NCBI GenBank assembly: GCA_019323355.1
Contig: JAHWHI010000014.1
Coordinates: 1-41,643 of the forward strand
Source: Candidatus Woesearchaeota archaeon
GTDB taxonomy: Archaea > Nanobdellota > Nanobdellia > Woesearchaeales > WJKV01
Length of the DNA stretch: 41,643 nucleotides
Direction: 5' to 3'
Part shown: in pieces, positions 6,571-27,480 of the stretch
Position numbering within the stretch: position 1 is the first letter of the stretch
Layout of the letters: each line of letters opens with the position of its first letter
Program-made: the position numbers and the translations under genes
The notes under the pieces: model-generated
What the model saw: only the letters and a program-made list of their open reading frames with translations
What the model was told of the DNA's origin: nothing
Database searches by the model: none

Positions 6571-7902
6571 TTAACCAGTACTCTCAGTGATATTCACATT
6601 TTTAACTTTTGCGCTTCCTGATACAACCGGACCCTGGACTTCCCATCCTGACTGCTGAAATCTTTCTTTTGAACATTCTGCAATATTTGATAGAATCCGT
6701 AACATGTTATCTGTTATTCGGATTCCCTTCACTGGTTGGACAACCTCTCCATTCTTGTAGAGAAAGATCGCATCTCTCGGAATTGTCGAGAAATCTCCAG
6801 TAAGATAATTCTGGAATCTTGTATACCAAGTGTTTGTAATTCTCAATCCTGAAAAATCCTTGTACATACTCTCGGTCTTATTTTTTCCAGGAGCGATCAC
6901 AATGTTCGTGTTTGTCGGATAAATCAATCCTGCGTTCGCTGTTGTCTTAGTTTTGTATCTTCTTGCTGTGCTCGTATTGTGCAGAAAAGTCTTGAGAATT
7001 CCTTTCTCTATGACCAAAGTTTTTCTTTTTGGAACTCCTTCTGCATCGAACTTCGAGGTCTCAATGCCTCCAGGATAGGTTCCGTCATCATAAACTGTGA
7101 CTGCTTCTGATGCTACTTTCTTGCCCAATTTGTCAATAAAAAAAGAATAGCCTGATTCTGCTGCACTGATCCTAGAAGAATAACCTACATTATCTAGTAT
7201 GTCCCCAAAAGGATATGGGTCCATGATAACATCATATTTTTTAGCAGGAATCCTTTTCGGAGCTTTTGCTTTTACAGCATCTTCTGCAGATTTTCTTCCG
7301 CTTTTTTCAGGATCAAAATCAGATAGTACTCTGCAGACCTGGTTATAATAGCCGGACTCGTCCTTTTTGACATGGCTCCGGAATGAAAGATAAAGGGCTG
7401 TCCCTTTGTCTTTTGCCTCTACATTGCTCGAAGTAAGTAAATTCTCTTCTGAACATGCAAATTCGAAAACACCATTGCAACGCTTTGCACCGAGCGAGAG
7501 CGCAGTGTTTATCGCTGATTCGACAATGTCAATGCTCTTGTCGTGAAGGTCCAATATTTTTTTATCATAAGTCTTCTCAGTCTTTTTGTACTTGAACGGG
7601 CCTTCTGCAATTCCTTGATATTTCTTGTTTGGCTCCATTGCCTTTGCAAAGGAAATGGCCTTCTTGACAAAGTTGTTGATTGCGGTATTGTCAAACCGTT
7701 CTAGTGATGAAGAGATCATCCTTTGATTATATGCGAACATTATCGCAACATATTTATGATCCCAGGTTTTTGTGGCTGCGATCTCATTGTTCGAGAATTT
7801 GATCTGTGTCTTTGTTTCATCCCTCAATTCGAGCACAATATCATCTGCGCCTTTCTTTTTGAGTTCTCTCATCAATGTCTTCAAAAAATTACTATCTTCC
7901 AT
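6571..7902 (-). CDS. pmbA: TldE/PmbA-family metalloprotease subunit
   Basis: TldD/PmbA fold length and C-terminal conserved blocks (GLRITNTWYTRF, VKGIRITDNML), with no HExxxH motif. Its start lies 2 nt downstream of the tldD stop. Confidence 0.85.
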   Translation of the reverse strand: MEDSNFLKTLMRELKKKGADDIVLELRDETKTQIKFSNNEIAATKTWDHKYVAIMFAYNQRMISSSLERFDNTAINNFVKKAISFAKAMEPNKKYQGIAEGPFKYKKTEKTYDKKILDLHDKSIDIVESAINTALSLGAKRCNGVFEFACSEENLLTSSNVEAKDKGTALYLSFRSHVKKDESGYYNQVCRVLSDFDPEKSGRKSAEDAVKAKAPKRIPAKKYDVIMDPYPFGDILDNVGYSSRISAAESGYSFFIDKLGKKVASEAVTVYDDGTYPGGIETSKFDAEGVPKRKTLVIEKGILKTFLHNTSTARRYKTKTTANAGLIYPTNTNIVIAPGKNKTESMYKDFSGLRITNTWYTRFQNYLTGDFSTIPRDAIFLYKNGEVVQPVKGIRITDNMLRILSNIAECSKERFQQSGWEVQGPVVSGSAKVKNVNITESTG

Positions 7903-7903
7903 T

Positions 7904-9310
7904 TTATCTGATCTTAATATTTTTCAAACGTATCGAAGGACCTCCAGTTGTTACTGGGACTCCCTGGGAAGGCTCTCCCTTTCCGCATGTTGCTGCCCTT
8001 AATTCGATTTTTTTTCCGATCGCGTCGACAGCTGACCAGAACTTTGGAGTTGTTATCTCAAGCACAGGAGCGACCAGAGGATACATTATCTTTCCATTCT
8101 TTACATAGTATGCCTCTGAACCAACATATTTCTGGTTGAAACGTTTGTCGTCAATGTTCCATTCCTGGAAACCTTCCATGTAGATCCCTTCTTTTGTATC
8201 AGCAATTATCTCGTCGTGTGTCCAGTCACCGGGTTCAGTATATGTGTTAGACATCCTGACAATAGGCTCGTTTGCAAATACCTGTGCTCTGGCACATCCA
8301 TTGCTCTTCAAACCCATCTTTGCTGCTGTTTCTCTGTTATGAAGAAATTCATTGACCTTTCCGTTTTTCAACAAGTAGCGCTTTCTTGCTTTTACGCCTT
8401 CACAATCATACAAAAAGTAGCCTGCAGTTCCTTCAAGTAGAGGATTGTCAACAACATTCACAATCTCTGCACCGATCTGCTCTCCCACCATATCCCGCTT
8501 GATAAAGGATTCTCCGGCCTGTGCACTCTCTCTTCCAAGAATCCTGTCAGCCTCATAGGGATGGCCGACGCTCTCGTGGGAAGCTATGCCTGTAACTTCT
8601 GGACCGCAGATTATGCTATAATTGCCTGATTTAATTTTCTTACCTTTTTGGATATTTTCTTTTAGTTTTAATGCTATTTCAAGAGCGTGATCTGATACTT
8701 TCCATTTCTTGAAGACCTCCAGACCTCCGAGAGAATTATACTGATAAAATCTCTGCCTCATATCCTTTTTTTCCTTGACTGTCATGAACCAATAAAGCTC
8801 GACTCTTGGTATTATAGAAGTTATCTTTGTCCCTTCTGTATTTGCAATGATCTGCTTCCTGTGATCGTGTTCAAGATAAAAATGCCTTGCTGGAACTTGA
8901 ACTTTTGATTTTGTCAGAGTAGAATCAATATCGTAGAGTAGCTTAAGCTTCTCTGCAGGATCAATATCTCTTGGATCAGTCTTCATCTTGACTTCCACTT
9001 TCTTTTTATGGGATTTTTCTTCTGAGAAGACTATCGGCTCTTTCATCAATCTAGAACCTATCTTTGTTATCTTTTTCGCCCTAAGTACCATCTGTTTTAT
9101 GCTTGTTTTGTCAAGCTTGTTTGTCGAAGCAAAACCTAACGTGCCATTTATCAGGAGACGTACACCAATCCCGTTTTGAGTCGAGAAACCTCCCAGCTCG
9201 GGATTTCCATTCTTCAAGAAATAAGCGTCATCCTCAATCTCCTCAAGACGTACCTCTGCATATTTTGCATCTTTACATAAACCTAGTACGTAATCAACTA
9301 TCTCCTCCAT
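7904..9310 (-). CDS. tldD: TldD-family zinc metalloprotease
   Basis: HESVGHPYEADR (HExxxH), GNYSIICGP, RMSNTYTEPG and the C-terminal GKGEPSQGVPV block. Confidence 0.9.
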   Translation of the reverse strand: MEEIVDYVLGLCKDAKYAEVRLEEIEDDAYFLKNGNPELGGFSTQNGIGVRLLINGTLGFASTNKLDKTSIKQMVLRAKKITKIGSRLMKEPIVFSEEKSHKKKVEVKMKTDPRDIDPAEKLKLLYDIDSTLTKSKVQVPARHFYLEHDHRKQIIANTEGTKITSIIPRVELYWFMTVKEKKDMRQRFYQYNSLGGLEVFKKWKVSDHALEIALKLKENIQKGKKIKSGNYSIICGPEVTGIASHESVGHPYEADRILGRESAQAGESFIKRDMVGEQIGAEIVNVVDNPLLEGTAGYFLYDCEGVKARKRYLLKNGKVNEFLHNRETAAKMGLKSNGCARAQVFANEPIVRMSNTYTEPGDWTHDEIIADTKEGIYMEGFQEWNIDDKRFNQKYVGSEAYYVKNGKIMYPLVAPVLEITTPKFWSAVDAIGKKIELRAATCGKGEPSQGVPVTTGGPSIRLKNIKIR

Positions 9311-10672: not shown

Positions 10673-11491
10673 ATGGCGCAGATGATAAGTGTGACTGCAC
10701 TCTCAGCATATCTCTACTGCAGGAGAAAACTATATCTGGAACAGGTATTAGGGTTGAAGGAGGTTCCAAAAGAGACCGTGATCGTAGGTAAGATCAGGCA
10801 CAATGTATATGATCTTGTGAACAGGCAGGAGAAAGGTATTGTGCTTTCAATCCATGAGAACAATATCGACCAGATCGAAGAGAAATATAAGACAAATTAT
10901 TCAAATAATCTCAAGAATTCAATAAAACTGAACAAGACACTTCTGCATAACCTGAAGTTTAATCTTAGTGATGTCTACAGACAGTTATGGCCCACATTCC
11001 TGGAGGAAGCAAGAATAAGGGCAGCTGCTCTCAGAGGCTTTGTCGAAAAGAACAAAATATTTGGACCTAAATTATGGGAGAGACTAACGCCAAAGATAGA
11101 ATCCGAGGTATTTGTATCTTCAAAAGAACTCGAGCTTAAAGGAAAGATAGACCGGATTGAAAAACACGATGATAAGATAGTGCCAATCGAGCTGAAGACA
11201 GGAAAAGCTCCAAGAGAGAGTGTATGGGAGGGGCATCTGATCCAGATAGGGGCTTATATGATGCTTCTTGAAGAACAGTTCCAGAAGCCTGTCAATGACG
11301 GCATGGTTGAATATCTGACTGAAAAAATAAAAAGGCCTGTGAAAATGAACCCGTTTCTCAAGAATGACATAATGAAGCTCAAGGAGGAAGTCAAAGAATT
11401 GCTTGCCTCAGATAAACTGCCTGAGATCACTGAAAACAAGAACAAATGTAAGATCTGCGGGCTCAGGGATGAGTGTTATAGGCTCAATTAA
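10673..11491 (+). CDS. Cas4-like PD-(D/E)xK exonuclease with a 4-Cys Fe-S cluster motif (stand-alone)
   Basis: N-terminal Cys in YLYCRRKLY. Nuclease motifs IDRIE / PIELKTGK (D...ExK) and QIGAYMMLLE (QxxxY). C-terminal CKICGLRDEC (CX2CX5C). Confidence 0.8.
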   Translation: MAQMISVTALSAYLYCRRKLYLEQVLGLKEVPKETVIVGKIRHNVYDLVNRQEKGIVLSIHENNIDQIEEKYKTNYSNNLKNSIKLNKTLLHNLKFNLSDVYRQLWPTFLEEARIRAAALRGFVEKNKIFGPKLWERLTPKIESEVFVSSKELELKGKIDRIEKHDDKIVPIELKTGKAPRESVWEGHLIQIGAYMMLLEEQFQKPVNDGMVEYLTEKIKRPVKMNPFLKNDIMKLKEEVKELLASDKLPEITENKNKCKICGLRDECYRLN

Positions 11492-12893: not shown

Positions 12894-13853
12894 TTATTCT
12901 TCTGGAAGCACTGCAATGCTTGTGCTTATTGTTTCTTTGTAGTCATACTGCAGCTTGATATTGATTGACTTTACAAAGTCATTCTGGACAGCAATATCCT
13001 GCTTGCACCTGATGATTGCCTCTCCAGCCCGCAGATCTGCGTAACCAGTATTGTCAGAACCTTCTCTCAGACCAGAACATACAAGGCCTGGAAGTCCAGT
13101 ATCAATCTCTACAAAGACACGGTTCTCGTCAACCCTCTGCGGATTGCAATCACTAGCAAGCCTGTATACCTTTCCGTTTCCTTTTTTCTGGATCCTGAAT
13201 GTGAAAGCCAGTGCTGTTGAGCTTGCTGCATTCTCTGTCAGCTCTACGACCTGTACTGGAGATGCACTGTTCTGGACAACCCGAGAACCATCTACAGCAC
13301 ATACACCTTCTTCCCTGGATCGAAGATCCTTTCGGATACATAATGAGCTTATTGCTTTTGTGCCGTATTTGTAGCAGATGTCAGCCCGTACTGGATAAGT
13401 TGTATCTCCTAAGACCGGCTGTTCCCGATTCAAACTTTCGTAGATAATGTAAACTGCGTTTGACGGAATTACAGTGCCTTGCGGATCCCGATATTTTGCA
13501 AGAAGGTCTTCGTCTGGGTTCTTCCGAGCTTCTGTGTAACCAAATTCTGCAGGATCAAGACCGCTAAGAGTTACTGTGACATCGTCTTTCATAACTTCCC
13601 ATTCACCGTCATTGATCAGCTGGATCTCAACATCAAACGGATCTGCTCCGCCGCTGAAGACCTTATCTCTTGGCCTGTCTGGCGAGAATTCCAATAAAAG
13701 TCCATTTGTTCCGCCAATAAAAGCTCTTGTCTCGACAGTTCCTTTGTCTCCGCCAAAGATCCCACGTTCCTCTCCAACATCTCTTTGTGCGCAGCCTACT
13801 GCTAGAACTGTTATAGCAAGTAAAATCATTGCAATAATATGTAGTTTTCTCAT
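12894..13853 (-). CDS. Putative secreted lipoprotein, paralog 1 of a local family
   Basis: Signal peptide with lipobox (ILLAITVLAVGC), GGAGG SD, beta-rich sequence. Shares CYxYxT...CI, APVxV and C-terminal Y-x-Y blocks with the two neighbouring genes. Confidence 0.7.
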   Translation of the reverse strand: MRKLHIIAMILLAITVLAVGCAQRDVGEERGIFGGDKGTVETRAFIGGTNGLLLEFSPDRPRDKVFSGGADPFDVEIQLINDGEWEVMKDDVTVTLSGLDPAEFGYTEARKNPDEDLLAKYRDPQGTVIPSNAVYIIYESLNREQPVLGDTTYPVRADICYKYGTKAISSLCIRKDLRSREEGVCAVDGSRVVQNSASPVQVVELTENAASSTALAFTFRIQKKGNGKVYRLASDCNPQRVDENRVFVEIDTGLPGLVCSGLREGSDNTGYADLRAGEAIIRCKQDIAVQNDFVKSINIKLQYDYKETISTSIAVLPEE

Positions 13854-13866
13854 GATAAATTCCTCC

Positions 13867-14901
13867 TTAACCGAAGCCTAAATTTTCGATCAAAATTGGC
13901 TGGACAATGCTTTGTGTGACACGGTATTCTGTTTTTATTGTCAAAGGCGTGTTAAGCACGTCAGGTCCAACATCAAGTGTTGCAAAACATGAAAGAACAG
14001 GATTCTCGCGATAGATATTGAACTTATTGTCAGTATTCTTTAACAGCGGACATTCTAGATCTGTTGTTGCAAGTATTGTCGGAGCAACAACTGTGCCTTC
14101 TTCTGTGAACTGGATCCATCCATAATTCTGCCTCTCTAATGGGGCATCTGGATCGCATGCATCGACATCGTCTCCAGTCCTCAAGGATGTTGCCTGTATA
14201 TCGTATATCTTGAGATTCTGGGATTCATCCACTTGGTTAAAATAAATGTCAAACCTTACACGCACCTGGTCAGGACTTATCTTGTCTGTACGGTAATCAA
14301 CCTTTGTGACAGACACTGGTGCTGCCTGGCCTGCTGACAATGTCACAGAAGCCTCTTTTGGACAGCCAGAACCATCTTTCTGGCCACTGCCATCCCTGTC
14401 AATACATATAGGGAAGCTTGCCTGTGTCGCATAATCATAACATGCTGTGATAATCGTATCCTGCTTTAATCTTGGAGTTCCAAGTTCGAGTACATTTTCT
14501 TCGTTCACATCCCCGCTGAATGTGATCAACTGCTCTCCACCTGGACCGTATCTTGTTTTTCCTGGCAGGTCAGATCCCTCTATTTCTTTTTCTTCTTCCT
14601 CATATTCAAGATAACTTGGGTCATAACCATAGATGATCAGTTTCATCGGCCTGTAGGAAGCAAGATCACGTGGAGGCCATCTTCCTAGATTCTTAAGATT
14701 TACAAGGTAAGAAAAACTTTGGCCTGGTGTCAGCTTCATCTCTTCTGGACTCTCCAGAGTGATATCGATTCCGCGCAATCCTTCCAGGTACTGCCCTTCT
14801 TCAAATGCAGGACCCTCATTCTGCTGGTCTCTTGCGCAGGAAACTGAAAAGATTAGCATAGAAATCAGGATAATTGCAAATATTACGTATTTAACCTTCA
14901 T
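13867..14901 (-). CDS. Putative secreted lipoprotein, paralog 2
   Basis: Signal peptide with lipobox (ISMLIFSVSC). Conserved blocks ACYDYATQASFPICI, GQAAPVSVTKVD and IKTEYRVTQSIV. Confidence 0.7.
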   Translation of the reverse strand: MKVKYVIFAIILISMLIFSVSCARDQQNEGPAFEEGQYLEGLRGIDITLESPEEMKLTPGQSFSYLVNLKNLGRWPPRDLASYRPMKLIIYGYDPSYLEYEEEEKEIEGSDLPGKTRYGPGGEQLITFSGDVNEENVLELGTPRLKQDTIITACYDYATQASFPICIDRDGSGQKDGSGCPKEASVTLSAGQAAPVSVTKVDYRTDKISPDQVRVRFDIYFNQVDESQNLKIYDIQATSLRTGDDVDACDPDAPLERQNYGWIQFTEEGTVVAPTILATTDLECPLLKNTDNKFNIYRENPVLSCFATLDVGPDVLNTPLTIKTEYRVTQSIVQPILIENLGFG

Positions 14902-14988
14902 TTTTCATCCATCACTTTTATACTGTTCTTAATAGGGATTCTATATATAAACCTTTTGATTGGTTCCATATATGGATTATATATGATT

Positions 14989-15963
14989 TTATCTATTGAC
15001 AACTATCTTTTTTATTGTCAGTTGCTTTGATTCACCGATTTTATAGGCATATCTCAAACTTATCTGCAGGGGCGAGCGGGTTGCTGGCTTTCGCGGAAGG
15101 TCTACCACTTCACATTTGATCTTTGCCATGTTGTTGTCAAGATGAGTGTCTCTGCTGCAAGTCATAGCATCTCCGCCTGTCTGGGAATCAAAACTGTAAT
15201 CTGTTGAAAGCTGGACTGCAAAATCAAAATTGTTCAAAGTATCTTTTGGATATCCGCCAGGACCGCAGACCAAATCCAATGTTGATTTATCTCCAGGATA
15301 TTTCCTGTGGCGAAAGACCTGACCTTCTCCTTTATTTTCTACTGTGATGACAAAGGTAAGCTTGACTTTATCCTCAGGAACGTTTGTTATTATCTCTTCG
15401 ACATCTGTGACTGCAAGAGGTGCTCCCTGACCTTCAGAAAGATTAAGTTTCTTATTAGCTTCCTCGAACTCGCAGGTGAATGCTCCTACTCTCGCTCCGA
15501 TGCATCCGATCATATCTGCGATTGTCTCATAAGAATAACATAAGTTTACAGGAACTTCGACCTGAAGATCTTCTGTTGCAAAATCTATTGGTCCGGCCTT
15601 GAAAGTGAATATCTCTGGAGCTGGGACATAACCTCCGCTTGGATTATAGGAAGACCGCCCCTCGATCTTGTCCAGTTTTCTTGATGCTGTTGATTCATTG
15701 ATCAATGGAGGAGAAGATCCTAGGACAAGGATGCTTTCCTCTGCAGTATAAGCGCCTTTATTGTGGAGATCAACCTGCACCATGAAGATGTCATTCACAT
15801 ATACGTCTGTCTTTGGGAAGTCTGTAAAAGAGTACTCAAGACCACTATATCCTATCCTGTAAAGTTCTTTTTCATAAGTGTCATACATACCTAAATCACA
15901 TGCTGCTGCCAGAACTAAAACTGTAAGCAAACTAAATGCTAGTAATATTTGTTTGTGGTTCAT
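14989..15963 (-). CDS. Putative secreted lipoprotein, paralog 3
   Basis: Signal peptide with lipobox (LTVLVLAAAC). Conserved blocks LCYSYETIADMIGCI, GQGAPLAVTDVE and ISLRYAYKIGES. The start overlaps the end of the upstream gene by 32 nt. Confidence 0.7.
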   Translation of the reverse strand: MNHKQILLAFSLLTVLVLAAACDLGMYDTYEKELYRIGYSGLEYSFTDFPKTDVYVNDIFMVQVDLHNKGAYTAEESILVLGSSPPLINESTASRKLDKIEGRSSYNPSGGYVPAPEIFTFKAGPIDFATEDLQVEVPVNLCYSYETIADMIGCIGARVGAFTCEFEEANKKLNLSEGQGAPLAVTDVEEIITNVPEDKVKLTFVITVENKGEGQVFRHRKYPGDKSTLDLVCGPGGYPKDTLNNFDFAVQLSTDYSFDSQTGGDAMTCSRDTHLDNNMAKIKCEVVDLPRKPATRSPLQISLRYAYKIGESKQLTIKKIVVNR

Positions 15964-18900
15964 TTTTCTTCAAACAATCTGGATCCCTTATGATAAGCTG
16001 CTCCTTTTTATTAGTGTTTTGATATAATGTTTTTAAATCCAGACTCTTGCCGTCTTTTGTTATCTTGAATGTTAAATCCTTGCCAGCATAACCGACAAGT
16101 TCTCCTTTTGCAATGTTCCCTGCTTTTCTTGCTCTTCTGATGCCTTCAAAGGTTGTAGTATATCCATTTGGATGTTTGATCTCCAGACCAGAATCTCCCT
16201 TCACTGAAACTTCCCCGCTTTCAGGAGAAACAATCTTTTGATTTTCTGCACTGATCTTGACTTCTTTCAAACCATCTATGCATTTGCTGATGGCTTTTGT
16301 GTCAGCTGGCCAAATAAACATATCCTCGACTGGAAAGCCACGGCACATGCTGAACTCGTCATCCCAATCACAATTGATATTGCACGGGTCCAACAGGCAT
16401 TGCTCTTTGTTTGGATATTCTGAGCAACTCATGCTAGATCCACAGGATTCACAAGAATCCCCGACAACCCATTCTGCGACTGTCCGTGAAGCTGAGATTC
16501 CCAGTGCAGGACTTATCAGGTATGTGCCAGCTTCTGATATTGCTGTTGCAGTAGGTTTTCTTGATGCATACTGCCAATAACAATTGTTTCCGCACGCATC
16601 AATATCACAATATTTTCTATCCGGATAGTCACAACCAGAAACATCTGTCAGGCAGGTGTCATACAAAGATCCTTTCGGGTTGATACCGGGTGCAAGAGTT
16701 TTATCATAATCTTTTATACGAACCACTGTCTTTGCTGATAAAGTATAACGATATCGTGCAACTGATTTTATGTAGTATGGAGTGACATCAACACCAGTAA
16801 GGATTGCATTTGGGTTTACAGCTTCTATACGGCAGTTGAATGTCCTGAAATTTTCAATGTTAGTATCCAGAGGTTTTTTCAGTCCGTACTCAACTTCGTT
16901 TGTCTTTGGAAGGTCAGCCACTTTTACAAATTCTGGAGTGCATCCTTCTGCCATCTTGAAAACATTCGGCATTATGACACTGATATTATGGATGGCTGTT
17001 ATCTTTCCGTTCCTCCACTGATTCTTCAGTGTGACACCCATTGCAGCGCCCCTGTCCTGGGCAATGATTGCTCCGGTTATTCCTTCAAAACCGAGTGTTG
17101 CTGCTGCTGTCGGCATTTCCTCCTCATATCCAGCACCAATTGCTCCTGACTGGACAGCTATAACAGAACCCTCTGAAAAACCAACTCCAACCATCACTGG
17201 TCCTGGAGTGTACTGGGCTTCTGGTTCTGGAATCCCTTTTGCTTGCAGGACGGTCTCTCCCTGTCTCTGGAATTCAAGTTTTAGTTCCCGGTCAACAAAA
17301 TATGCTTTGTAGTATCCGACTGTTATGAAATCAAAGTCTGCTTTGAACTCTACTTTTTTAGCTCCTGGCTCTAACGGAGTGAAGTCACAATCAACACGCT
17401 CTCCTCCAAATACCAAGTCAGAGAAATTCGCACGCTGAGGATAGACCCTGCCGACACCTTCTCCTTCTATCTCACAGGACAGGTCAATGACGCATTCTGC
17501 AAGATTCTCCTTTCCAGAGCAGATATCTGAAGCCAATGAGTTTCCGCTCAACTCTGCTGTGACTGATGCAGGAATCCCACGTTCGAATGTAATATCTCCC
17601 ACTTTGCTTGGAGCTAACTTGACACCGTAATTCTTATCTTTAGAGGCGTCGACTGTTGCTGTGAAAGCGTCTCCTGTTGCCAGCGCGACCTGCTCACCCC
17701 ACCAGTCTTTTGCCCATTGCATTGGACGTATATCTTCTGCCCAGATCTCAACTTTTTTCTGCTGGAAAGCAACGTCAATGATTCCAGTCTCGTATAGATT
17801 ATTAGCATATTTTCCGACTGGAACCTGGAAGTAAACCATCCCAGCGACAACCAGGATTATCATTATCATTGCATAAGCAATATTGTGGAGCTCGAGGCCT
17901 TCGCCTTTTTTCAGCTCGCGCAATTCTCTTCTCTTTGGGTTGAAAATGTAATCCAGAATGTAAATTATCGGTACGCAGATCACATACGTTGGAATCAAAT
18001 CTGCGCCTGGAATAAACTCTATAACAACAGGGATGAAAGCAAAAAGGTAAGTGTAGGGAGTTCCGCCCATAGATCTTCCAATCAAATACCCTGTGATTGG
18101 TTCTGCGATATCTCCGATTCCAGGAACTGCAAGACCGACATAATCTAAAGCGTCACTGATGATCGCGATTATCATCGCAAGCCAGAAATGCACTGGAAGC
18201 TCTTTTGTCAGCTGGCCGATACGCTGCCTTTTAGAGATTGCCTCTGCTCTTCTCGAGGCTGAGACTGCCTCTCTTCTTTCTTCTCGAGCTTCTTCAGCTT
18301 CTCTTTCTGCAATTTTCAATTCTCCTTTCTGGATCTGGGCTGCCTCTTTCACAGCCTCTGTCTTTGCAGCCTCTTTTGCTGCTGTCTCTTTTGCAGCCAC
18401 TGTCCCGGCTTTCTCGCTTGCAAATATTTTTGCAAAATCTCCAAGCTTGCTTCCTACTGTAGAGACGCGTTCTCCGAATGTGGGGCCTGGTGCGCCTGCA
18501 TAAGCAGGTTCATAATATTCATACGCAGAAACTTCTGATGCTGCATATCTTCCCCTTCCAAACGGCTTGAACTTTGCAAAGAATGGAAGCACTAGATGAT
18601 ATATCAGATAGATGTGCAATGCTCCGAAACCAAAGAACATCAGGACCAAAACAAATGTAATAATATTCTGCTTGAAAACTTCTCTGAAAGATTCACTGTC
18701 CATCGACCTGTAGCTGACAAATACAAATACGAACAGGCCGAATATCCAGAATACTTTGTTATCATGAAGAATATCCAAAGGAAAGTATTGTGAAAGATAA
18801 GCCTGCGCTCTAGGAAACTGCGCAAAGACAACTGCGAAAAGCGCAGCAACAAAGAAGACAGCAACATCTTTTGCATCCCCTTGTTTTTCTGGAATCATGC

Positions 18901-19177
18901 CGAAAGGATCTCCTTCTCCACGCGCGAGCCTGTGCTCGTGGAACTCGACCTTTACCCAGTGAAGCGGAATTATTGCGAGAAGAGCCCAGGGCGAGATAAA
19001 AACCGCAACCATCACATAGACCATCCAGTTGCCTGGCTGTTTAAGCGGATTCTTATGGCCTGGATCTGCAGCGAGAATAAACAAAACAAGACGGATAATT
19101 ACTAATACACCTATAAGAGAAGTTGCAACACCTGGTATTGGAAGGTATAGATTGATAAATTCATCGACAGTCCCCAT
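15932..19177 (-). CDS. 1081-aa polytopic membrane protein with a cytoplasmic coiled-coil loop, a large Cys-rich ectodomain and a C-terminal degenerate LytM/M23-like domain
   Basis: ATG with GGGGAT SD. About 9 hydrophobic helices in the first ~450 aa are interrupted by an A/E/K/R coiled-coil (~18225-18425). The remaining ~600 aa are beta-rich with many Cys. No confident family assignment. Confidence 0.75.
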   Translation of the reverse strand: MGTVDEFINLYLPIPGVATSLIGVLVIIRLVLFILAADPGHKNPLKQPGNWMVYVMVAVFISPWALLAIIPLHWVKVEFHEHRLARGEGDPFGMIPEKQGDAKDVAVFFVAALFAVVFAQFPRAQAYLSQYFPLDILHDNKVFWIFGLFVFVFVSYRSMDSESFREVFKQNIITFVLVLMFFGFGALHIYLIYHLVLPFFAKFKPFGRGRYAASEVSAYEYYEPAYAGAPGPTFGERVSTVGSKLGDFAKIFASEKAGTVAAKETAAKEAAKTEAVKEAAQIQKGELKIAEREAEEAREERREAVSASRRAEAISKRQRIGQLTKELPVHFWLAMIIAIISDALDYVGLAVPGIGDIAEPITGYLIGRSMGGTPYTYLFAFIPVVIEFIPGADLIPTYVICVPIIYILDYIFNPKRRELRELKKGEGLELHNIAYAMIMIILVVAGMVYFQVPVGKYANNLYETGIIDVAFQQKKVEIWAEDIRPMQWAKDWWGEQVALATGDAFTATVDASKDKNYGVKLAPSKVGDITFERGIPASVTAELSGNSLASDICSGKENLAECVIDLSCEIEGEGVGRVYPQRANFSDLVFGGERVDCDFTPLEPGAKKVEFKADFDFITVGYYKAYFVDRELKLEFQRQGETVLQAKGIPEPEAQYTPGPVMVGVGFSEGSVIAVQSGAIGAGYEEEMPTAAATLGFEGITGAIIAQDRGAAMGVTLKNQWRNGKITAIHNISVIMPNVFKMAEGCTPEFVKVADLPKTNEVEYGLKKPLDTNIENFRTFNCRIEAVNPNAILTGVDVTPYYIKSVARYRYTLSAKTVVRIKDYDKTLAPGINPKGSLYDTCLTDVSGCDYPDRKYCDIDACGNNCYWQYASRKPTATAISEAGTYLISPALGISASRTVAEWVVGDSCESCGSSMSCSEYPNKEQCLLDPCNINCDWDDEFSMCRGFPVEDMFIWPADTKAISKCIDGLKEVKISAENQKIVSPESGEVSVKGDSGLEIKHPNGYTTTFEGIRRARKAGNIAKGELVGYAGKDLTFKITKDGKSLDLKTLYQNTNKKEQLIIRDPDCLKKNEPQTNITSI

Positions 19178-19208: not shown

Positions 19209-20417
19209 TCAGCTCTCGATTTCTATTGTGATTTCAAGACCTGTTACATCAATCCCACTGCTACGAGGGACAAGCTTGATTGCATTGGTTCCATCAATCA
19301 AGTAATCGTCAATCTCCTGTGAGAACACCTCTCCGCGCTCTCCAATGTGGATTGTCCTACCGTTAATGTAAACATCAAGATTCTTGAACTCTGGGCTTAC
19401 AAAACTTAAATAGAGCATTGCAAGCACATCATCCTCTTCCTGGATCTCATAAAGATCCTCCTCTTCAAGCTCAAAGTAGTAAGTAGGAGCAATTGGTTCT
19501 TTGAAACTTTGTATTATCTGGATATTATCAACAATGTAATTTCCCGTTGTTGTCTTGAAAGTAAGGTCATTCTCGCCAGTCATCAGCTTATCTGGCAGGA
19601 AGTCGATCACTACAGGAGATCCGCATAACGGAATTGTTTTTGAAAGCAATTGGTTGTTCACCAATATCTCAAGCGGACCGACATTTCCAGGGCTACACTC
19701 TGGAAGATATTTTAAAGTTAATTTCTTGGTATTCAAAAGATCGTCAGTAGTGATGATGAACTTGTTTGTGCTTGACAATTTAGATATGTCGCGGACATCA
19801 CCAGTTATCTGGATAGTTTCCAGGAGATAGCTGTTTGTCGCCCAGAATCTTATTCCTGGACTGCTCACCCTAAACTCAAGAACATTCTCTCTCTGCAACA
19901 GTTGCCTTGGTATCTCGACCGGCGGATTTGTAGGCTGGGATAGCTCACTGTTGAAGATCTGCTTTCCGTTCATGAAAATTATCAATCTGCCAGAATACTT
20001 TTTTGCATTGAATGACAACAAGATACTGTCAGTATTATCTGGATCAGCAAGTATAAAATGGAAAGTGTCTGGCTCTGCACTGAACAGACTGCGTTCAGTA
20101 TAGATAGAAGCTGCTCTTGCAAGCTGTTTGCTCTTAACTTCTGAAGACAGGAATGAAGCAGGAAGGTACAGCCTGTTCTGGGTTGCTGTAAGAGTGTCAA
20201 GCCTTCCAGGTGTTTTTGATAGTAAGATGTATCCGCCCATTGAAGGGATTGTAGGAGTTGTAGGCTGAAAACCTGAAGGTCCTTCTGTGCCTTCCAACAG
20301 CTCTGTCCGATGTTCTGGCGGGACAAGCAAGATATAAAGAATTATTACAACTGCAATCAAAGCAACTAGTGCTGCTGCTCCGCTTCCAGCATCACCTCTT
20401 CTATTCTTTCTAACCAT
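19209..20417 (-). CDS. N-terminally anchored protein with three ~95-aa internal repeats (beta-sandwich-like)
   Basis: ATG 20417 is preceded by GGTGA (the ORF-track GTG is at 20426). It has a basic N-terminus plus a hydrophobic helix (AAALVALIAVVIILYILLV), then three repeats sharing L-x-L-x-[FY]...L-x-[IV]-x-[VM]-N-[GN]...G-x-N-x-[LI]...I-x-I. Confidence 0.7.
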   Translation of the reverse strand: MVRKNRRGDAGSGAAALVALIAVVIILYILLVPPEHRTELLEGTEGPSGFQPTTPTIPSMGGYILLSKTPGRLDTLTATQNRLYLPASFLSSEVKSKQLARAASIYTERSLFSAEPDTFHFILADPDNTDSILLSFNAKKYSGRLIIFMNGKQIFNSELSQPTNPPVEIPRQLLQRENVLEFRVSSPGIRFWATNSYLLETIQITGDVRDISKLSSTNKFIITTDDLLNTKKLTLKYLPECSPGNVGPLEILVNNQLLSKTIPLCGSPVVIDFLPDKLMTGENDLTFKTTTGNYIVDNIQIIQSFKEPIAPTYYFELEEEDLYEIQEEDDVLAMLYLSFVSPEFKNLDVYINGRTIHIGERGEVFSQEIDDYLIDGTNAIKLVPRSSGIDVTGLEITIEIES

Positions 20418-20442
20418 AACGCTCACCTGCTGACAAATAATA

Positions 20443-20512
20443 CCTATTTATATATAAAACCATCTATTTTATAAAGGGACGGTTAAAAAACCAGGGCAAA
20501 TATATATAAACA
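20443..20512. promoter_or_regulatory. Divergent promoter region between the envelope operon and pelota
   Basis: Three TATA-like boxes: TATTTATATATAAAA (20445-20459), TTTATAAAGGG (20468-20478) and AAATATATATAAAC (20498-20511). The outer two lie ~25-35 nt from the respective ATGs. Confidence 0.4.
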
Positions 20513-20532
20513 GCCCGGGATTCTGGTTCTTT

Positions 20533-25905: not shown

Positions 25906-27480
25906 ATGTTGAGGAAAGGGTTATTGCTGGGAATCGTATTCTTGTTCTTACTAATTCCAGTTGTTTATGCTGACAATCCTGTGATCTTTGATGATTTTGT
26001 AAATGTGGATGAGACCGCAAAGACAAGCATCGGAGAATTTTCAGTAAGATATTATGATAAGGGGGATAGGCAGGACACAATGGTCCTGGAGAAAACTGAC
26101 GAAAGCGATTTCCGTCTGCTTATCGATGATGGTGAGTGCGAATATGACCAGCAGTATAAGTTCTGTTTCCAGGGAAGCCAGCTCGGAAAACATGATTATG
26201 AAAAGGATATTGACATCATGGCTGTGAAACTTCGTATCGAAGAGATGGTTCCGTCCATAGAGCGTACTATAGCTAAAAAAAGCTTGGTTCCTGGCGAAGA
26301 GACAGAAGCAACTGTTACAATCACAATCCCAGAAGGAAGAAGAGCAATTATTTCGTATTCTGAAACTTTTCCTCAAGAGATTAGAATCGATTCTGGAAAA
26401 GGATATGTCCAAGGGAATACACTTAAATTTGAAGGAAAAGTAGACGGGGTTTTCACCTTAACATATACACTAAAACTCATGGCGCAGGAGATGGCGCCAT
26501 TCGATGCTAAAGGTTTGTTGAGCTATGATTTCGAGGGTAAAACAGGAAAACTCACAACATCTGAGATCACACTTACAAAACTTAATGATATGGAGATAGA
26601 GATAGAATTTGACCCAGAAGAAGCTGAGCTCGGAGAAGAAGTTGAATTAGAGATTAATTTAGATAAAAAAGTTGATGACAGCCTGGATATAAAGAGACTT
26701 GAAATTATATTTCCAAAAGGGACCCAGTATCTCCAGACAGATACAGAGTTTGAACAGGAGGGGGATACGCATTACTGGACACAGACTAGACTTACTGAAG
26801 ACAAAGAATATGTCTATAAGATAGTACAGAACACTGCTGGAAATTATTCTGTAAAGATTATAGCTAAAACTGACAGAAATGGAAACGAGCAATACCAGGA
26901 AAAAGTTGCTGTCCTCAAGTCTGCGATAAAAGACCTTTACTTGGGCCTGACATTTCCATCGACAATAACCTATCCTAAAAATGTCAAGCTAAAAGCATAT
27001 TTTGAAAATAAGAATGCAAATACAAAGTTTGAGGAGATTAAATGCACCATTACCGGAGATCTGTACAACAAAGAGGATTTTTCATTTGGAAATTCTTTTC
27101 CTGGAAAAAGAACTAATATCGTTGACGAATACCTAAAGCTTGCTGATACTTCTCCAAGAAAACTTACGCATACTTTTGCATGCACGTACAAACTTCCTAC
27201 CGGCGAGATACGTGCGGTCCAGATAACTAAAGAGAGCCAGGTCAATGTCACTGAAGCTGAACTTGGTGATGAAGAAGAAGAAGGCGAAGAGCTGGAAGAA
27301 GGAATTGATAGGAAGCTTGGATTCAAGGACAGTGAAGAAGAGCCTGAGGAAACAACTGAAGAGAAAGAAGATCAAGAGGAAAAAGAGGGCGGGTTCTTCA
27401 AAAAGATAATCAACTGGTTCAAGAACTTATTCTCTGGTGAAGATGCTGAAGAAATAGATGAAGATGAAATAAAAGAATGA
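25906..27480 (+). CDS. Secreted beta-rich protein with an acidic C-terminal tail and a terminal amphipathic segment
   Basis: Signal peptide LLLGIVFLFLLIPVVYA/DNP, Ig-like-fold-style stretches (LVPGEETEATVTITIPEG), an E/D-rich tail and then GFFKKIINWFKNLFSG. No family recognised. Confidence 0.7.
   Translation: MLRKGLLLGIVFLFLLIPVVYADNPVIFDDFVNVDETAKTSIGEFSVRYYDKGDRQDTMVLEKTDESDFRLLIDDGECEYDQQYKFCFQGSQLGKHDYEKDIDIMAVKLRIEEMVPSIERTIAKKSLVPGEETEATVTITIPEGRRAIISYSETFPQEIRIDSGKGYVQGNTLKFEGKVDGVFTLTYTLKLMAQEMAPFDAKGLLSYDFEGKTGKLTTSEITLTKLNDMEIEIEFDPEEAELGEEVELEINLDKKVDDSLDIKRLEIIFPKGTQYLQTDTEFEQEGDTHYWTQTRLTEDKEYVYKIVQNTAGNYSVKIIAKTDRNGNEQYQEKVAVLKSAIKDLYLGLTFPSTITYPKNVKLKAYFENKNANTKFEEIKCTITGDLYNKEDFSFGNSFPGKRTNIVDEYLKLADTSPRKLTHTFACTYKLPTGEIRAVQITKESQVNVTEAELGDEEEEGEELEEGIDRKLGFKDSEEEPEETTEEKEDQEEKEGGFFKKIINWFKNLFSGEDAEEIDEDEIKE

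What the first reader, a model, noticed from the sequence alone, without database searches (positions are those of the whole stretch)
15932..19177. Giant polytopic protein joining a membrane core, a cytoplasmic coiled coil and a ~600-aa Cys-rich ectodomain
About five hydrophobic helices come first. They are followed by a ~130-aa loop containing an A/E/K/R heptad-like stretch (AAKETAAKEAAKTEAVKEAAQIQKGELKIAEREAEEAREERREAVSASRRAEAISKRQ, ~18225-18425). Then come four more helices with conserved-looking acidic/Gly-Pro turns (SDALDYVGLAVPGIGDIAEP, EFIPGADLIP). The remaining part (15935-17825) is beta-rich. This architecture of a membrane channel-like core plus an outward-reaching adhesin or enzyme-like head matches no family I recognise. 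It could be the organising subunit of the operon.
Basis: partly seen in the sequence, partly recalled or inferred. Interest (0 to 1): 0.65.

Follow-up and report, generated by a model that had tools for sequence, protein, structure and literature searches.

The report
Woesearchaeal surface anchor, inactive LytM head
This is a real 1081-residue membrane protein of a Woesearchaeota archaeon: the membrane-embedded subunit of an apparently undescribed five-gene cell-surface cassette conserved across that lineage, tipped here with a catalytically dead LytM domain of the kind that in bacteria acts on the cell wall, which suggests a device for contacting bacteria.

Summary
The ORF (15932-19177, minus strand, 1081 aa) is real and is not a chimera. 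A 73%-identical collinear ortholog sits in an independent 300-kb contig, and about ten more full-length orthologs exist at 23-31% identity. The loop is variable and has no heptad pattern, so it is not a demonstrable coiled coil.

New findings:
- Residues 485-830 form a strongly conserved two-beta-sandwich domain shared by at least 460 cluster representatives. All 80 genome loci recovered come from Woesearchaeota/Nanoarchaeota.
- The C-terminus has an M23/LytM fold but lacks HxxxD, the catalytic His and HxH, so NCBI's "M23 metallopeptidase" name overstates it.
- The gene is subunit "E" of a fixed cassette P-E-L1-L2-L3: a prepilin-like protein, E, and three anciently diverged lipoproteins. The cassette lies between Pelota and RFC in about 80 species.
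- E's C-terminus is a swappable socket carrying SLT, M23, glucosaminidase, NlpC/P60, amidase or nothing.
- Membrane anchors differ between clades, which argues against a channel as the family's core function.

Best reading: a surface scaffold that displays a cell-wall-binding head. The function is inferred, not shown.

The parts
15932..19177 (-). Whole ORF, 1081 aa: subunit 'E' of the P-E-L1-L2-L3 cassette
   Evidence: The ORF is listed. The close ortholog P0002 is 73% identical over 99% of the length. Eleven further orthologs, nine of them full length, are 23-31% identical. The same cassette is found in L001 and L082.
18578..19177 (-). N-terminal five-TM module (residues 1-200), specific to a small clade
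   Evidence: Hydropathy is. The module is 81.5% identical to P0002. It is found only in the close ortholog set and in 3 of 82 loci. It has no Pfam match and is unrelated to the other E anchors.
18203..18577 (-). Cytoplasmic charged loop (residues 201-325) with a long A/E/K/R helix at 262-325. A variable linker, not a demonstrable coiled coil
   Evidence: The loop has 24 K+R. The AF2 helix 262-325 has pLDDT about 70-87. There is no heptad pattern. Length and sequence vary between orthologs.
17813..18202 (-). Second TM module (residues 326-455): two helix-turn-helix hairpins plus a final TM, with conserved D342, D345, D/E359, E387, P390, D393 and P396
   Evidence: The AF2 helices are. Conservation in 26 copies is. 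The module recurs in a subset of the wider family. Its D-x-L-D-x-x-G-x-x-x-P-x-x-G-D motif resembles the DUF4112 repeat of family member P0106.
16688..17725 (-). Conserved family-defining ectodomain (residues 485-830): N-terminal helices plus two beta-sandwiches. Motifs are ATGDYYTGxVD-like, AxF[ND]FxTxxYxKxYF, YT[NP]GPVxIG, LG[IV]TLxNxWxxGxI and a terminal YxY
   Evidence: pLDDT is mostly above 90. Nearly invariant columns across 111 and 150 sequences are. Eighty genome loci were recovered with two of these motifs. No PDB or Pfam relative was found. Foldseek gives only generic tandem Ig-like matches.
16328..16687 (-). Cys-rich spacer (residues 831-950): two copies of a C..Y...C..[DA]xC...CxW mini-module separated by a low-confidence linker
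   Evidence: The regex matches both copies here and in the ortholog. Related modules precede the heads of 12 of 57 family C-terminal extensions.
15935..16327 (-). Degenerate LytM (M23-fold) head (residues 951-1081) lacking all metal-binding and catalytic residues
   Evidence: Pfam Peptidase_M23 scores E=5.1e-5 and 23.8 bits, below the 28.7 cut-off. Foldseek probability is 1.0 to LasA, NGO1686, ShyA, the PrgK LytM domain and the DipM LytM domain, and to phage M23 proteins. Aligned to an in-family canonical M23 (HVGVD...FHL...HVHLE), the HxxxD motif, the catalytic His and the HxH motif are all absent in the target and its orthologs.
19209..20426 (-). Cassette gene P (405 aa): a prepilin-like (class III-type) N-terminus followed by tandem ~100-aa beta repeats
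   Evidence: The N-terminal consensus is [KR][GA]Q, then a hydrophobic helix, then LPPEER, in 45 homologs listed. P is present in 66 of 82 loci, directly upstream of E. Internal repeat a versus b gives hhalign probability 95%. There is no Pfam or PDB match.
14989..15963 (-). Cassette gene L1 (324 aa lipoprotein). Its start overlaps the end of E by 32 nt
   Evidence: It has a signal peptide and the lipobox LAAAC. It is paralogous to L2 and L3. It belongs to an orthologous group defined by operon position.
13867..14901 (-). Cassette gene L2 (344 aa lipoprotein)
   Evidence: Lipobox VSC.
12894..13853 (-). Cassette gene L3 (319 aa lipoprotein)
   Evidence: Lipobox VGC.
20427..20532 (.). Divergent intergenic region between P and Pelota, with TATA-like A/T boxes. 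Putative cassette promoter (inference only)
   Evidence: The sequence read shows TTTATATATAAATA at about 20445-20458, upstream of the GTG at 20426 and the ATG at 20417. No transcription data are available.

Best explanation
The ORF encodes the polytopic subunit ('E') of a five-protein, membrane-anchored surface complex. The complex is encoded by one vertically inherited cassette, P-E-L1-L2-L3, in Woesearchaeota.

All five products have their bulk outside the cell:
- P is held by a prepilin-like N-terminal helix.
- E is held by its TM domain.
- L1-L3 are held by a lipid on the lipobox Cys.

E contributes a conserved two-beta-sandwich ectodomain that is probably a distant paralog of the L proteins. 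Its C-terminus acts as a socket on which different clades carry different heads, most often peptidoglycan hydrolases.

In this genome the head is two Cys-rich spacer modules plus a LytM domain that has lost every catalytic and zinc ligand. It therefore cannot cleave peptidoglycan. It most likely binds bacterial peptidoglycan or its peptide stems as an adhesin, or it activates a separate hydrolase as bacterial dLytM factors do. The complex would then serve contact with the walls of bacterial partners or prey.

The extra N-terminal 5-TM module and the charged cytoplasmic helix are clade-specific additions of unknown role.

Shown: the ORF, the domain architecture, the family, the cassette, the loss of catalytic residues and the head swapping. 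Inferred: complex formation, topology, peptidoglycan binding and the role in host contact.
For: The ORF and its orthologs:
- The ORF is real and has collinear orthologs in independent assemblies.

The cassette:
- P-E-L-L-L lies on one strand and is complete in 44 of 82 loci. Most of the rest are cut by contig ends or lack a detected P. P occurs in 66 loci and L in 73.
- The flanks are also conserved: Pelota in 55 loci, RFC in 50 and TrmB in 41. This points to a largely single-copy, vertically inherited core block.
- L1, L2 and L3 are positional orthologous groups. The best cross-genome hit lies at the same operon position in 93-96% of comparisons, so the three are old and non-redundant.

Anchors and topology:
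- 159 of 187 L proteins carry a lipobox Cys at about residue 22.
- P carries a prepilin-like [KR][GA]Q-plus-hydrophobic N-terminus.
- The charge distribution puts the loops at 196-325 and 413-435 on the inside.

E ectodomain versus L proteins:
- Two hhalign runs gave collinear alignments: 165 columns at E=3.5e-4 (probability 37%) and 233 columns at E=1.4e-3 (probability 17%). Motifs correspond in both.

Swappable heads:
- Of 56 C-terminal extensions, 14 carry SLT, 3 M23, 3 glucosaminidase, 2 NlpC/P60 and 1 Amidase_2. About 22 complete E proteins have no extension.
- In an independent sample of 58 family members, 19 carry SLT.

The head in this protein:
- It has the M23 fold but lacks HxxxD, the catalytic His and HxH.

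Literature:
- Large extracellular SLT-domain proteins in Woesearchaeota and Pacearchaeota have already been proposed to bind or degrade bacterial walls (PMC8204110; PMC9723730).
- Archaeal peptidoglycan hydrolases that kill bacteria have been demonstrated in other archaea (PMC12352652).
Against: - No experiment or expression data exist for any family member.
- About 22 of 82 E proteins carry no head at all. The conserved core function of the cassette therefore cannot be peptidoglycan targeting.
- Physical association of P, E and L1-L3 is inferred only from operon conservation.
- The E/L paralogy rests on low hhalign probabilities of 17-37%.
- The role of a dead LytM domain in an organism without peptidoglycan is extrapolated from bacterial dLytM proteins (EnvC, NlpD, DipM; my own knowledge). 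Those act on the cell's own wall.
- The membrane part of the model is low-confidence, with pLDDT 55-70.
Confidence: 0.5

Rival explanations
1. The cassette is a purely structural envelope unit, S-layer-like or a pseudo-periplasm scaffold. P, E and L1-L3 would build the basic surface layer of Woesearchaeota, and the heads on E would be secondary decorations. The target's job would then be envelope architecture, not host contact.
For: - The cassette is largely single-copy and sits in a housekeeping block between Pelota and RFC in nearly all loci.
- About 22 E proteins have no head.
- All five proteins are membrane-anchored, beta-rich and Ig-like.
- Three anciently fixed paralogs suggest a heteromeric lattice unit.
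Against: - Heads are strongly biased toward enzymes that act on bacterial peptidoglycan, which the archaeon itself lacks.
- No similarity to any known S-layer protein was found.
- This rival is partly compatible with the best explanation, as a scaffold that also displays heads.
Confidence: 0.25
2. The membrane core is a channel or transporter. The conserved acidic and Pro residues in the second TM module would line a pore or ion site for uptake of host-derived molecules, and the ectodomain would dock onto the host.
For: - There are ten predicted membrane helices.
- D342 is invariant, and D345, D/E359, E387, D393, P390 and P396 are conserved within or next to the membrane.
- The N-terminal TM module and the second TM module are among the best conserved regions between close orthologs, at 81.5% and 75.4%.
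- The DUF4112-like repeat is a widespread membrane module of unknown function.
Against: - Anchors of E proteins vary from 2 to 9 TM segments. The minimal anchor, the N-terminal module and the second TM module show no homology to each other (hhalign probability <4%), while the ectodomain is conserved.
- No ATPase, permease partner or transporter-family match was found.
- No transporter fold appeared in Foldseek, although the model is weak in this region.
Confidence: 0.1
3. It is an active M23 family metallopeptidase, as named in the NCBI record, which cleaves peptidoglycan cross-links of bacteria.
For: - NCBI names the 99.8%-identical record 'M23 family metallopeptidase'.
- The M23 fold is confirmed.
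- One related locus (L050) carries a canonical M23 with HVGVD and HVHLE motifs.
Against: - The Pfam score is below the gathering threshold, 23.8 against 28.7 bits.
- The HxxxD motif, the third catalytic His and the HxH motif are all missing in the target and in all 11 orthologs aligned. The HxH loop is deleted.
- The domain covers only about 12% of the protein.
Confidence: 0.04
4. It is a conjugation or type IV secretion component, a VirB6/TrbL-like polytopic protein fused to a VirB1/PrgK-like wall hydrolase.
For: - The architecture resembles Gram-positive T4SS wall hydrolases.
- Foldseek hits the LytM domain of PrgK (8s0u, probability 1.0).
Against: - No VirB4, VirD4, relaxase or other T4SS gene lies in any of 82 loci. 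The flanks are housekeeping genes.
- No VirB6/TrbL Pfam or fold match was found.
- The cassette is chromosomal, largely single-copy and vertically inherited, and it is absent from viral contigs.
Confidence: 0.02
5. It is a highly divergent STT3/AglB-type oligosaccharyltransferase.
For: - The top Foldseek PDB hits for the ectodomain are the soluble domains of Pyrococcus AglB (2zai, 2zag, 3vu1; probability 0.95-0.98).
- A DWWGE motif lies about 40 residues after the last TM.
Against: - TM-score is 0.17-0.18 and rmsd 14 A, alongside equally scored unrelated tandem Ig-like proteins.
- There is no STT3 Pfam hit and no profile hit to AglB sequences in the PDB.
- The WW pair is not conserved in the wider family.
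- E anchors have 2-9 TM segments, not 13.
Confidence: 0.02
6. It is an assembly chimera or a frameshifted fusion of separate genes.
For: The length is unusual and three very different parts are joined.
Against: - The same end-to-end architecture occurs in an independent 300-kb contig at 73% identity.
- About ten more distant orthologs share it.
- GC is 0.41-0.46 across the ORF, within the window's range.
Confidence: 0.01

Closest known systems
[quoted passage not shown] 2021, PMC8204110; Vigneron et al. 2022, PMC9723730)
   Same: They come from the same lineage and follow the same idea of a surface protein carrying a domain that acts on bacterial peptidoglycan. Of the E-family members found here, 14 of 56 C-terminal extensions and 19 of 58 wider members carry an SLT domain. 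Part of the family described here is therefore very likely what those papers saw.
   Different: - Those reports describe only the SLT domain.
- They do not describe the conserved ectodomain, the membrane anchors, the head-swapping or the P-E-L1-L2-L3 cassette, as far as my searches show.
- The target has no SLT domain. Its head is a dead LytM.
- I did not verify identity with their 'fam00969'.
Degenerate LytM (dLytM) factors of bacteria: EnvC, NlpD, DipM and the LytM domain of PrgK
   Same: The head has the M23 fold with loss of zinc ligands. Foldseek probability is 1.0 to the DipM LytM domain (7qrl) and the PrgK LytM domain (8s0u). In bacteria such domains bind or regulate other hydrolases rather than cleaving (my own knowledge).
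   Different: - Here the domain is the tip of a 1081-aa polytopic archaeal protein, in an organism with no peptidoglycan of its own.
- No cognate amidase was identified.
- Sequence similarity is below Pfam's threshold.
Cell-wall hydrolases of Gram-positive conjugation systems (PrgK, TcpG, CwlT)
   Same: They are membrane-anchored and modular, with interchangeable SLT, LytM and NlpC/P60 heads for locally opening peptidoglycan.
   Different: There is no T4SS context. The target has a different, conserved ectodomain, and its cassette partners are lipoproteins and a pilin-like protein.
Pfam DUF4112 (PF13430) membrane domain
   Same: One E-family member (P0106) has a bona fide DUF4112 anchor (E=3.5e-9, 37.2 bits against a 23.3 cut-off). 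Its repeated D..LLGL.P..GD motif resembles the target's D-A-L-D-Y-V-G-L-A-V-P-G-I-G-D.
   Different: The target's module does not hit DUF4112 even at E<=10. The hhalign similarity is 23 columns at probability 58%. DUF4112 itself has no known function.
Archaeal S-layer and anchor systems (e.g. SlaA/SlaB, lipid-anchored halobacterial glycoprotein; my own knowledge)
   Same: They are membrane-anchored, Ig-like and beta-rich surface proteins that are chromosomally fixed and lineage-wide.
   Different: There is no sequence or specific fold similarity. This system has five distinct subunits, with three lipoprotein paralogs and a polytopic subunit.

Membership tests
Peptidase M23 (active metallopeptidase) | Pfam PF01551 match at or above the gathering score | tested here: not met
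   23.8 bits against a 28.7 cut-off, E=5.1e-5, profile positions 9-93 of 96. On the 252-aa C-terminal piece the score is 21.7 bits.
Peptidase M23 (active metallopeptidase) | M23/LytM beta-fold | tested here: met
   Foldseek probability 1.0 to LasA 3it5, 6muk, 6ik4, 8af1, ShyA 6ue4 and Csd1-Csd2 5j1l, and to phage M23 proteins. The region's pLDDT is 85-94.
Peptidase M23 (active metallopeptidase) | Zinc ligands and catalytic residues: the HxxxD motif, the catalytic His in the 'xYxHL' strand and the HxH motif | tested here: not met
   The target was aligned to the in-family canonical M23 of L050 (HVGVD / FFHLS / HVHLE). It has KEVKI / FEGIR, and the HxH loop is deleted (DL-TFKI). The same holds in 11 orthologs.
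Degenerate LytM (dLytM) regulators | M23 fold retained with catalytic and zinc residues lost | tested here: met
   Structural hits include DipM (7qrl) and the PrgK LytM domain (8s0u).
Degenerate LytM (dLytM) regulators | Binds or activates a partner cell-wall hydrolase, or binds peptidoglycan | not testable with these tools
   This needs biochemistry. No hydrolase gene lies in the 41.6-kb window.
Woesearchaeal 'E' family (defined here) | Conserved ~330-aa ectodomain with the motifs GDYYTGxVD-like, AxF[ND]FxTxxYxKxYF, YTxGPVxIG, LGxTLxNxWxGxI and a terminal YxY, placed after an N-terminal TM anchor | tested here: met
   The target has ATGDAFTATVD, ADFDFITVGYYKAYF, YTPGPVMVGVG, MGVTLKNQWRNGKI and RYRYTL. 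The profile search found 150 hits at E<=1e-10.
Woesearchaeal 'E' family (defined here) | Encoded between a prepilin-like P gene and three lipoprotein L genes on one strand | tested here: met
   In the window the order is P 19209-20426, E, then L1, L2 and L3 at 14989-15963, 13867-14901 and 12894-13853. The PELLL order is complete in 44 of 82 loci.
DUF4112 (PF13430) | Pfam match at or above the gathering score | tested here: not met
   No hit for residues 319-462 even at E<=10. Family member P0106 does match.
DUF4112 (PF13430) | Twice-repeated D..xxG.xP..GD helix-turn motif | tested here: inconclusive
   The first copy is present (DALDYVGLAVPGIGD). The second is weaker (EFIPGADLIP). hhalign gives probability 58% over 23 columns.
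STT3/AglB oligosaccharyltransferase | 13-TM domain with DxD, a WWDYG motif and a Pfam STT3 match | tested here: not met
   No Pfam hit and no PDB profile hit. There are about 10 TM segments here and 2-9 across the family. The Foldseek hits are to the soluble domain only, with TM-score 0.17.
VirB6/TrbL (T4SS) | T4SS gene neighbourhood (VirB4/VirD4 ATPases) and a VirB6/TrbL domain | tested here: not met
   The flanks are Pelota, RFC, TrmB, TyrRS and PheRS. There is no Pfam match.
Coiled coil | Heptad repeat with hydrophobic a/d positions, conserved in orthologs | tested here: not met
   3 of 18 a/d positions are hydrophobic in the best register. The segment is variable in length and sequence. 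No dedicated coiled-coil predictor was available.

The most novel reading that the evidence does not exclude
P-E-L1-L2-L3 is a previously unrecognised envelope machine that defines the Woesearchaeota lineage. It would be a heteromeric, membrane-anchored platform built from one prepilin-like subunit, one polytopic subunit and three lipoprotein subunits. The platform would mediate physical docking onto, and local breaching of, bacterial host cell walls, and possibly uptake of host material through E's acidic membrane module. E's C-terminal socket would be exchanged between clades to match different host walls. If so, head type would be a genomic predictor of host type for an entire uncultured phylum.
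Probability: 0.3. Interest if true: 0.8.

Novelty: new variant of a known kind. Interest (0 to 1): 0.6.

Why it matters
Woesearchaeota are among the most widespread uncultured archaea. Their hosts and their mode of cell-cell interaction are unknown. Earlier genomics noticed only that some of them carry large SLT-domain proteins.

This analysis adds four things:
- Those proteins, and this one, are variants of a single core gene with a conserved ectodomain.
- That gene sits in a fixed five-gene cassette present in essentially every genome sampled.
- Its tip is exchanged among peptidoglycan-directed domains.
- This gives concrete targets for multimer modelling, metaproteomics, cryo-ET and binding assays, and a testable link between head type and bacterial partners.

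It also corrects a database name. The protein is not an M23 metallopeptidase in any functional sense.

Tried and rejected
- **Curated libraries.** Pfam and NCBIfam on the whole protein and on four segments gave nothing except a sub-threshold M23 match.
- **Sequence search of the PDB.** phmmer with the protein and with its C-terminal domain gave only noise.
- **First AF2 run.** A 2-sequence alignment gave pLDDT 29.5 and was unusable, so one job was wasted.
- **Word-indexed homolog searches.** Three runs returned only 2, 4 and 10 proteins and were of little use. The exhaustive HMMER search was what opened up the family.
- **Locus search with large alignments.** The search for related loci with the 111- and 13-sequence alignments failed for lack of a conserved stretch. 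A 10-sequence ectodomain alignment worked.
- **Internal duplication of the TM region.** An iterated HMM of the second TM module also hit the N-terminal 5-TM region. hhalign gives probability 2.3% between the two. I rejected this as a hydrophobic-bias artefact.
- **Minimal 5-TM anchor versus the target's anchors.** No relation was found.
- **DUF4112 membership.** Kept only as a motif-level lead. The literature on DUF4112 is uninformative.
- **STT3/AglB, VirB6 and Oxa-like folds.** Not supported.
- **P versus L homology.** None found, probability 2%.
- **Viral origin.** No relative in IMG/VR.
- **Profile searches of P, L and the E ectodomain against PDB sequences.** Nothing found.
- **Literature.** I found no description of the cassette.

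Full report
**1. The observation**

The window holds one uninterrupted ORF at 15932..19177 on the minus strand, ATG to stop, 1081 aa.

Kyte-Doolittle analysis gives the following layout:
- Five hydrophobic segments at about residues 17-35, 52-70, 104-122, 140-158 and 172-195.
- A 130-residue loop at 196-325 with 24 K+R. It contains the quoted A/E/K/R stretch at residues 261-318.
- A second hydrophobic block at 326-455 with SDALDYVGLAVPGIGDIAEP and EFIPGADLIP.
- A short K/R-rich loop at 413-435 and a last TM segment at 436-454.
- A 627-residue tail with 20 Cys.

GC across the ORF is 0.41-0.46, within the window's range of 0.38-0.46.

**2. Not a chimera**

The NCBI record P0001 is 99.8% identical to the window protein. 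It differs at two residues and is named 'M23 family metallopeptidase [Candidatus Woesearchaeota archaeon]'.

P0002 is 73% identical and collinear over 99% of the length. It lies in an independent 300-kb contig.

An exhaustive HMMER search of 1.84 billion cluster representatives found 460 proteins at E<=1e-3, 150 at E<=1e-10 and 14 at E<=1e-30. Eleven more orthologs at 23-31% identity, nine of them full length, share the same end-to-end order: 5 TM, a variable charged loop, the second TM module, the ectodomain, the Cys modules and a C-terminal domain.

**3. Organism and neighbourhood**

The window is archaeal housekeeping DNA. It carries tRNA-intron endonuclease, FEN1, Trm5, PAN, a PmbA/TldD pair, TyrRS, a Cas4-like nuclease, the RFC small subunit, Pelota, TrmB, PheRS alpha and beta, SecY, an EMC3/TMCO1-like insertase and ribosomal proteins. 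It has no tRNA genes and no Rfam hits.

**4. Structure**

The first AF2 run, on a 2-sequence alignment, was useless (pLDDT 29.5). A 111-sequence alignment gave mean pLDDT 70:

| Region | Residues | pLDDT |
|---|---|---|
| Ectodomain | ~500-830 | mostly >90 |
| C-terminal domain | ~910-1060 | 85-94 |
| Helix in the loop | 262-325 | ~70-87 |
| Membrane parts | | 55-70 |

The ectodomain has two N-terminal helices (485-511) and two beta-sandwiches (about 518-629 and 711-822).

Foldseek against the PDB and BFVD gave two kinds of result.
- **C-terminal domain.** Probability-1.0 matches to M23/LytM domains: LasA, 6muk, ShyA, Csd1-Csd2, the PrgK LytM domain, the DipM LytM domain and phage M23 proteins.
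- **Ectodomain.** Only generic tandem Ig-like hits: the AglB soluble domain, transglutaminase 2, complement MG domains and AgI/II. Their rmsd is 14-26 A and TM-scores are at most 0.2.

Profile searches of PDB sequences with the ectodomain found nothing.

**5. The head is a dead LytM**

Pfam M23 matches below threshold, at 23.8 against 28.7 bits.

One related locus (L050) carries a canonical M23 with HVGVD, FFHLS and HVHLE. Aligned to it, the target and all 11 orthologs lack the HxxxD motif and the catalytic His, and the HxH loop is deleted. The NCBI name is therefore misleading. This is a degenerate LytM domain covering about 12% of the protein.

**6. The loop is not a demonstrable coiled coil**

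In helix 262-325 only 8 of 64 residues are strongly hydrophobic. At best 3 of 18 a/d positions are hydrophobic. The segment carries a 13-residue deletion in the 73% ortholog and is the least conserved region: 60% identity to the close ortholog and 18% to distant ones. I describe it as a variable, charged, Ala-rich helical linker. It is cytoplasmic by the positive-inside rule (inference).

**7. The family and its modular logic**

Most of the 150 best hits share only residues about 485-830, preceded by a TM anchor. Nearly invariant columns define the motifs GDYYTGxVD, AxF[ND]FxTxxYxKxYF, YTxGPVxIG, LGxTLxNxWxGxI and a terminal YxY.

Two of these motifs recovered 80 loci from GTDB species representatives. 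All are titled Woesearchaeota, Nanoarchaeota, Nanoarchaeia, unclassified 'archaeon' or 'uncultured Methanosarcinales'. The last label is a placeholder. Pelota proteins of the two label groups intermix, with median identity of 51% across labels against 50-53% within them, and a maximum of 96%. No relative exists in IMG/VR viral contigs.

Three features vary or hold across the family:
- **Anchors vary.** They have 2-9 TM segments, mostly 4-5. The minimal ~190-aa anchor, the target's N-terminal module and its second TM module show no homology to each other, with hhalign probability <4%.
- **The target's second TM module recurs in a subset**. D342 is kept in 26/26 copies, D345 in 23/26, E387 in 20/26, P390 in 20/26 and P396 in 21/26. 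Its first motif resembles the DUF4112 repeat that Pfam detects in family member P0106. I keep this as a lead only.
- **C-terminal extensions vary even more.** About 22 complete proteins end right after the ectodomain. Of 56 extensions, 14 carry SLT, 3 M23, 3 glucosaminidase, 2 NlpC/P60 and 1 Amidase_2, and a few carry fn3, PKD or Ig domains. In an independent sample of 58 members, 19 carry SLT.

Cys-rich C..Y..C..DxC..CxW modules like the two in the target precede the heads in 12 of 57 extensions.

**8. The cassette**

In 82 loci the E gene is preceded on the same strand by a ~395-aa gene (P, in 66 loci). It is followed by ~310-aa genes (L, 190 ORFs in 73 loci). The full order P-E-L-L-L is present in 44 loci, and most of the rest are cut by contig ends or lack a detected P. 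L082, a 25%-identical relative, shows the same order.

The flanks are conserved as well: Pelota in 55 loci, RFC in 50, TrmB in 41, a PRC-barrel gene in 39 and TyrRS in 30. The cassette is therefore a largely single-copy, vertically inherited part of the core genome.

The partner proteins:
- **P** has a prepilin-like N-terminus of [KR][GA]Q, a hydrophobic helix and LPPEER. It also has tandem internal repeats, with hhalign probability 95% between repeats a and b.
- **L proteins** carry a signal peptide and a lipobox Cys at about residue 22 in 159 of 187 cases.
- **The three L genes in the window** are mutual paralogs, with E-values from 5e-10 to 1.5e-5.
- **Each L operon position is its own orthologous group across genomes.** The best hit falls at the same position in 93-96% of comparisons. 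The triplication is therefore ancient and the copies are non-redundant.

Two hhalign runs align the E ectodomain collinearly with L, with matching motifs. One gave 165 columns at E=3.5e-4 and probability 37%. The other gave 233 columns at E=1.4e-3 and probability 17%. Paralogy is plausible but not established.

None of P, L or the E ectodomain has a Pfam, NCBIfam or PDB relative.

In the window the start of L1 overlaps the end of E by 32 nt. A GGGGAT motif precedes E's ATG, and TATA-like boxes lie in the P-Pelota intergenic region. These features are consistent with one operon (inference).

**9. Mechanism**

*Shown:*
- The architecture and the family.
- The fixed cassette.
- The swappable heads directed at peptidoglycan.
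- The loss of catalytic residues in this head.

*Inferred:*
- The five membrane-anchored products assemble into one surface complex.
- E's ectodomain is part of the scaffold, and its C-terminus presents the head away from the membrane.
- In this genome the head binds bacterial peptidoglycan, or regulates another hydrolase, rather than cleaving.

This fits published proposals that Woesearchaeota and Pacearchaeota use large SLT proteins to bind or degrade bacterial walls (PMC8204110, PMC9723730). It also fits the demonstration that other archaea deploy peptidoglycan hydrolases against bacteria (PMC12352652).

The main caveat is that about 22 of 82 E proteins have no head. The cassette's core role must therefore be something more basic, either envelope scaffolding or host contact as such. 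The structural-envelope rival remains live.

A channel function for the membrane core is disfavoured at the family level because the anchors are not conserved. It cannot be excluded for this clade, whose TM modules are well conserved (81.5% and 75.4% identity to the close ortholog).

**10. Comparison and novelty**

- **Closest known.** The DPANN 'large extracellular SLT proteins' are probably the same family, but were seen only at the level of the head. Bacterial dLytM factors share the fold and the loss of ligands, but sit in a different context.
- **Membership tested and not met.** The protein fails the tests for active M23, DUF4112 by Pfam, STT3/AglB, VirB6/TrbL and coiled coil.
- **New, as far as my searches show**: the conserved ectodomain, the head-swapping socket and the five-gene cassette.
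- **Rating.** I rate the protein a new variant of a known kind, namely DPANN surface proteins bearing cell-wall-directed domains. Interest is 0.6. The cassette as a whole could prove to be a new kind of envelope or host-contact machine (probability about 0.3).

Noticed in passing
window 19209-20426 (-): The gene upstream of the target (P, 405 aa) has a prepilin-like N-terminus (RRGD/AGSG followed by a hydrophobic helix and LVPPEH). It also has tandem ~100-aa internal repeats. The listed GTG start at 20426 may really be the ATG at 20417, because the ortholog starts MIKNRRGD.
   Followed up: partly
window 12894-15963 (-): Three lipobox lipoprotein paralogs (L1-L3) keep a fixed order across about 50 genomes, and each position forms its own orthologous group. 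The NCBI record for L1 (P0166, 299 aa) starts 25 residues later than the ORF. That start removes the conserved signal peptide and lipobox, so it is probably mis-annotated.
   Followed up: yes
window 25906-27480 (+): A 524-aa protein with a signal peptide and a strongly acidic C-terminal tail has no Pfam match. A syntenic 527-aa gene sits next to PheRS-beta in L001.
   Followed up: no
window 28196-28966 (-): An EMC3/TMCO1-like (Oxa1-superfamily) membrane insertase is encoded immediately downstream of SecY (28968-30407), at the end of the ribosomal-protein operon.
   Followed up: no
window 2205-3209 (+): A 334-aa protein with a long K/E/P-rich low-complexity centre has no Pfam or NCBIfam match. 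It is present in 5 related loci.
   Followed up: no
window 10673-11491 (+): A Cas4 / PD-(D/E)XK nuclease gene has no CRISPR array or other cas genes nearby. It is conserved near the cassette in 22 related loci, so it is likely a housekeeping nuclease.
   Followed up: no
L004, L006, L008, L010 and about 29 other loci: About 33 of the 80 genome loci are titled 'uncultured Methanosarcinales archaeon'. They share synteny with Woesearchaeota-labelled MAGs, and their Pelota sequences intermix with them at up to 96% identity. The taxonomic label is wrong or a placeholder.
   Followed up: yes
L050 1-2783: The E gene appears split into two ORFs of 647 and 456 aa. The second carries a canonical, apparently active M23 domain (HVGVD...HVHLE). 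The split could be a frameshift, an assembly error or a real break.
   Followed up: partly
L038 and L066: Two cassette loci come from the same MAG (CAZBGH01, contigs 22 and 83). This is the only apparent case of two copies in one genome bin. It could be a true duplication or a mixed bin.
   Followed up: no
window 6571-9310 (-): Adjacent PmbA/TldD-type metallopeptidase paralogs (443 and 468 aa) are conserved in the same position in L001.
   Followed up: no
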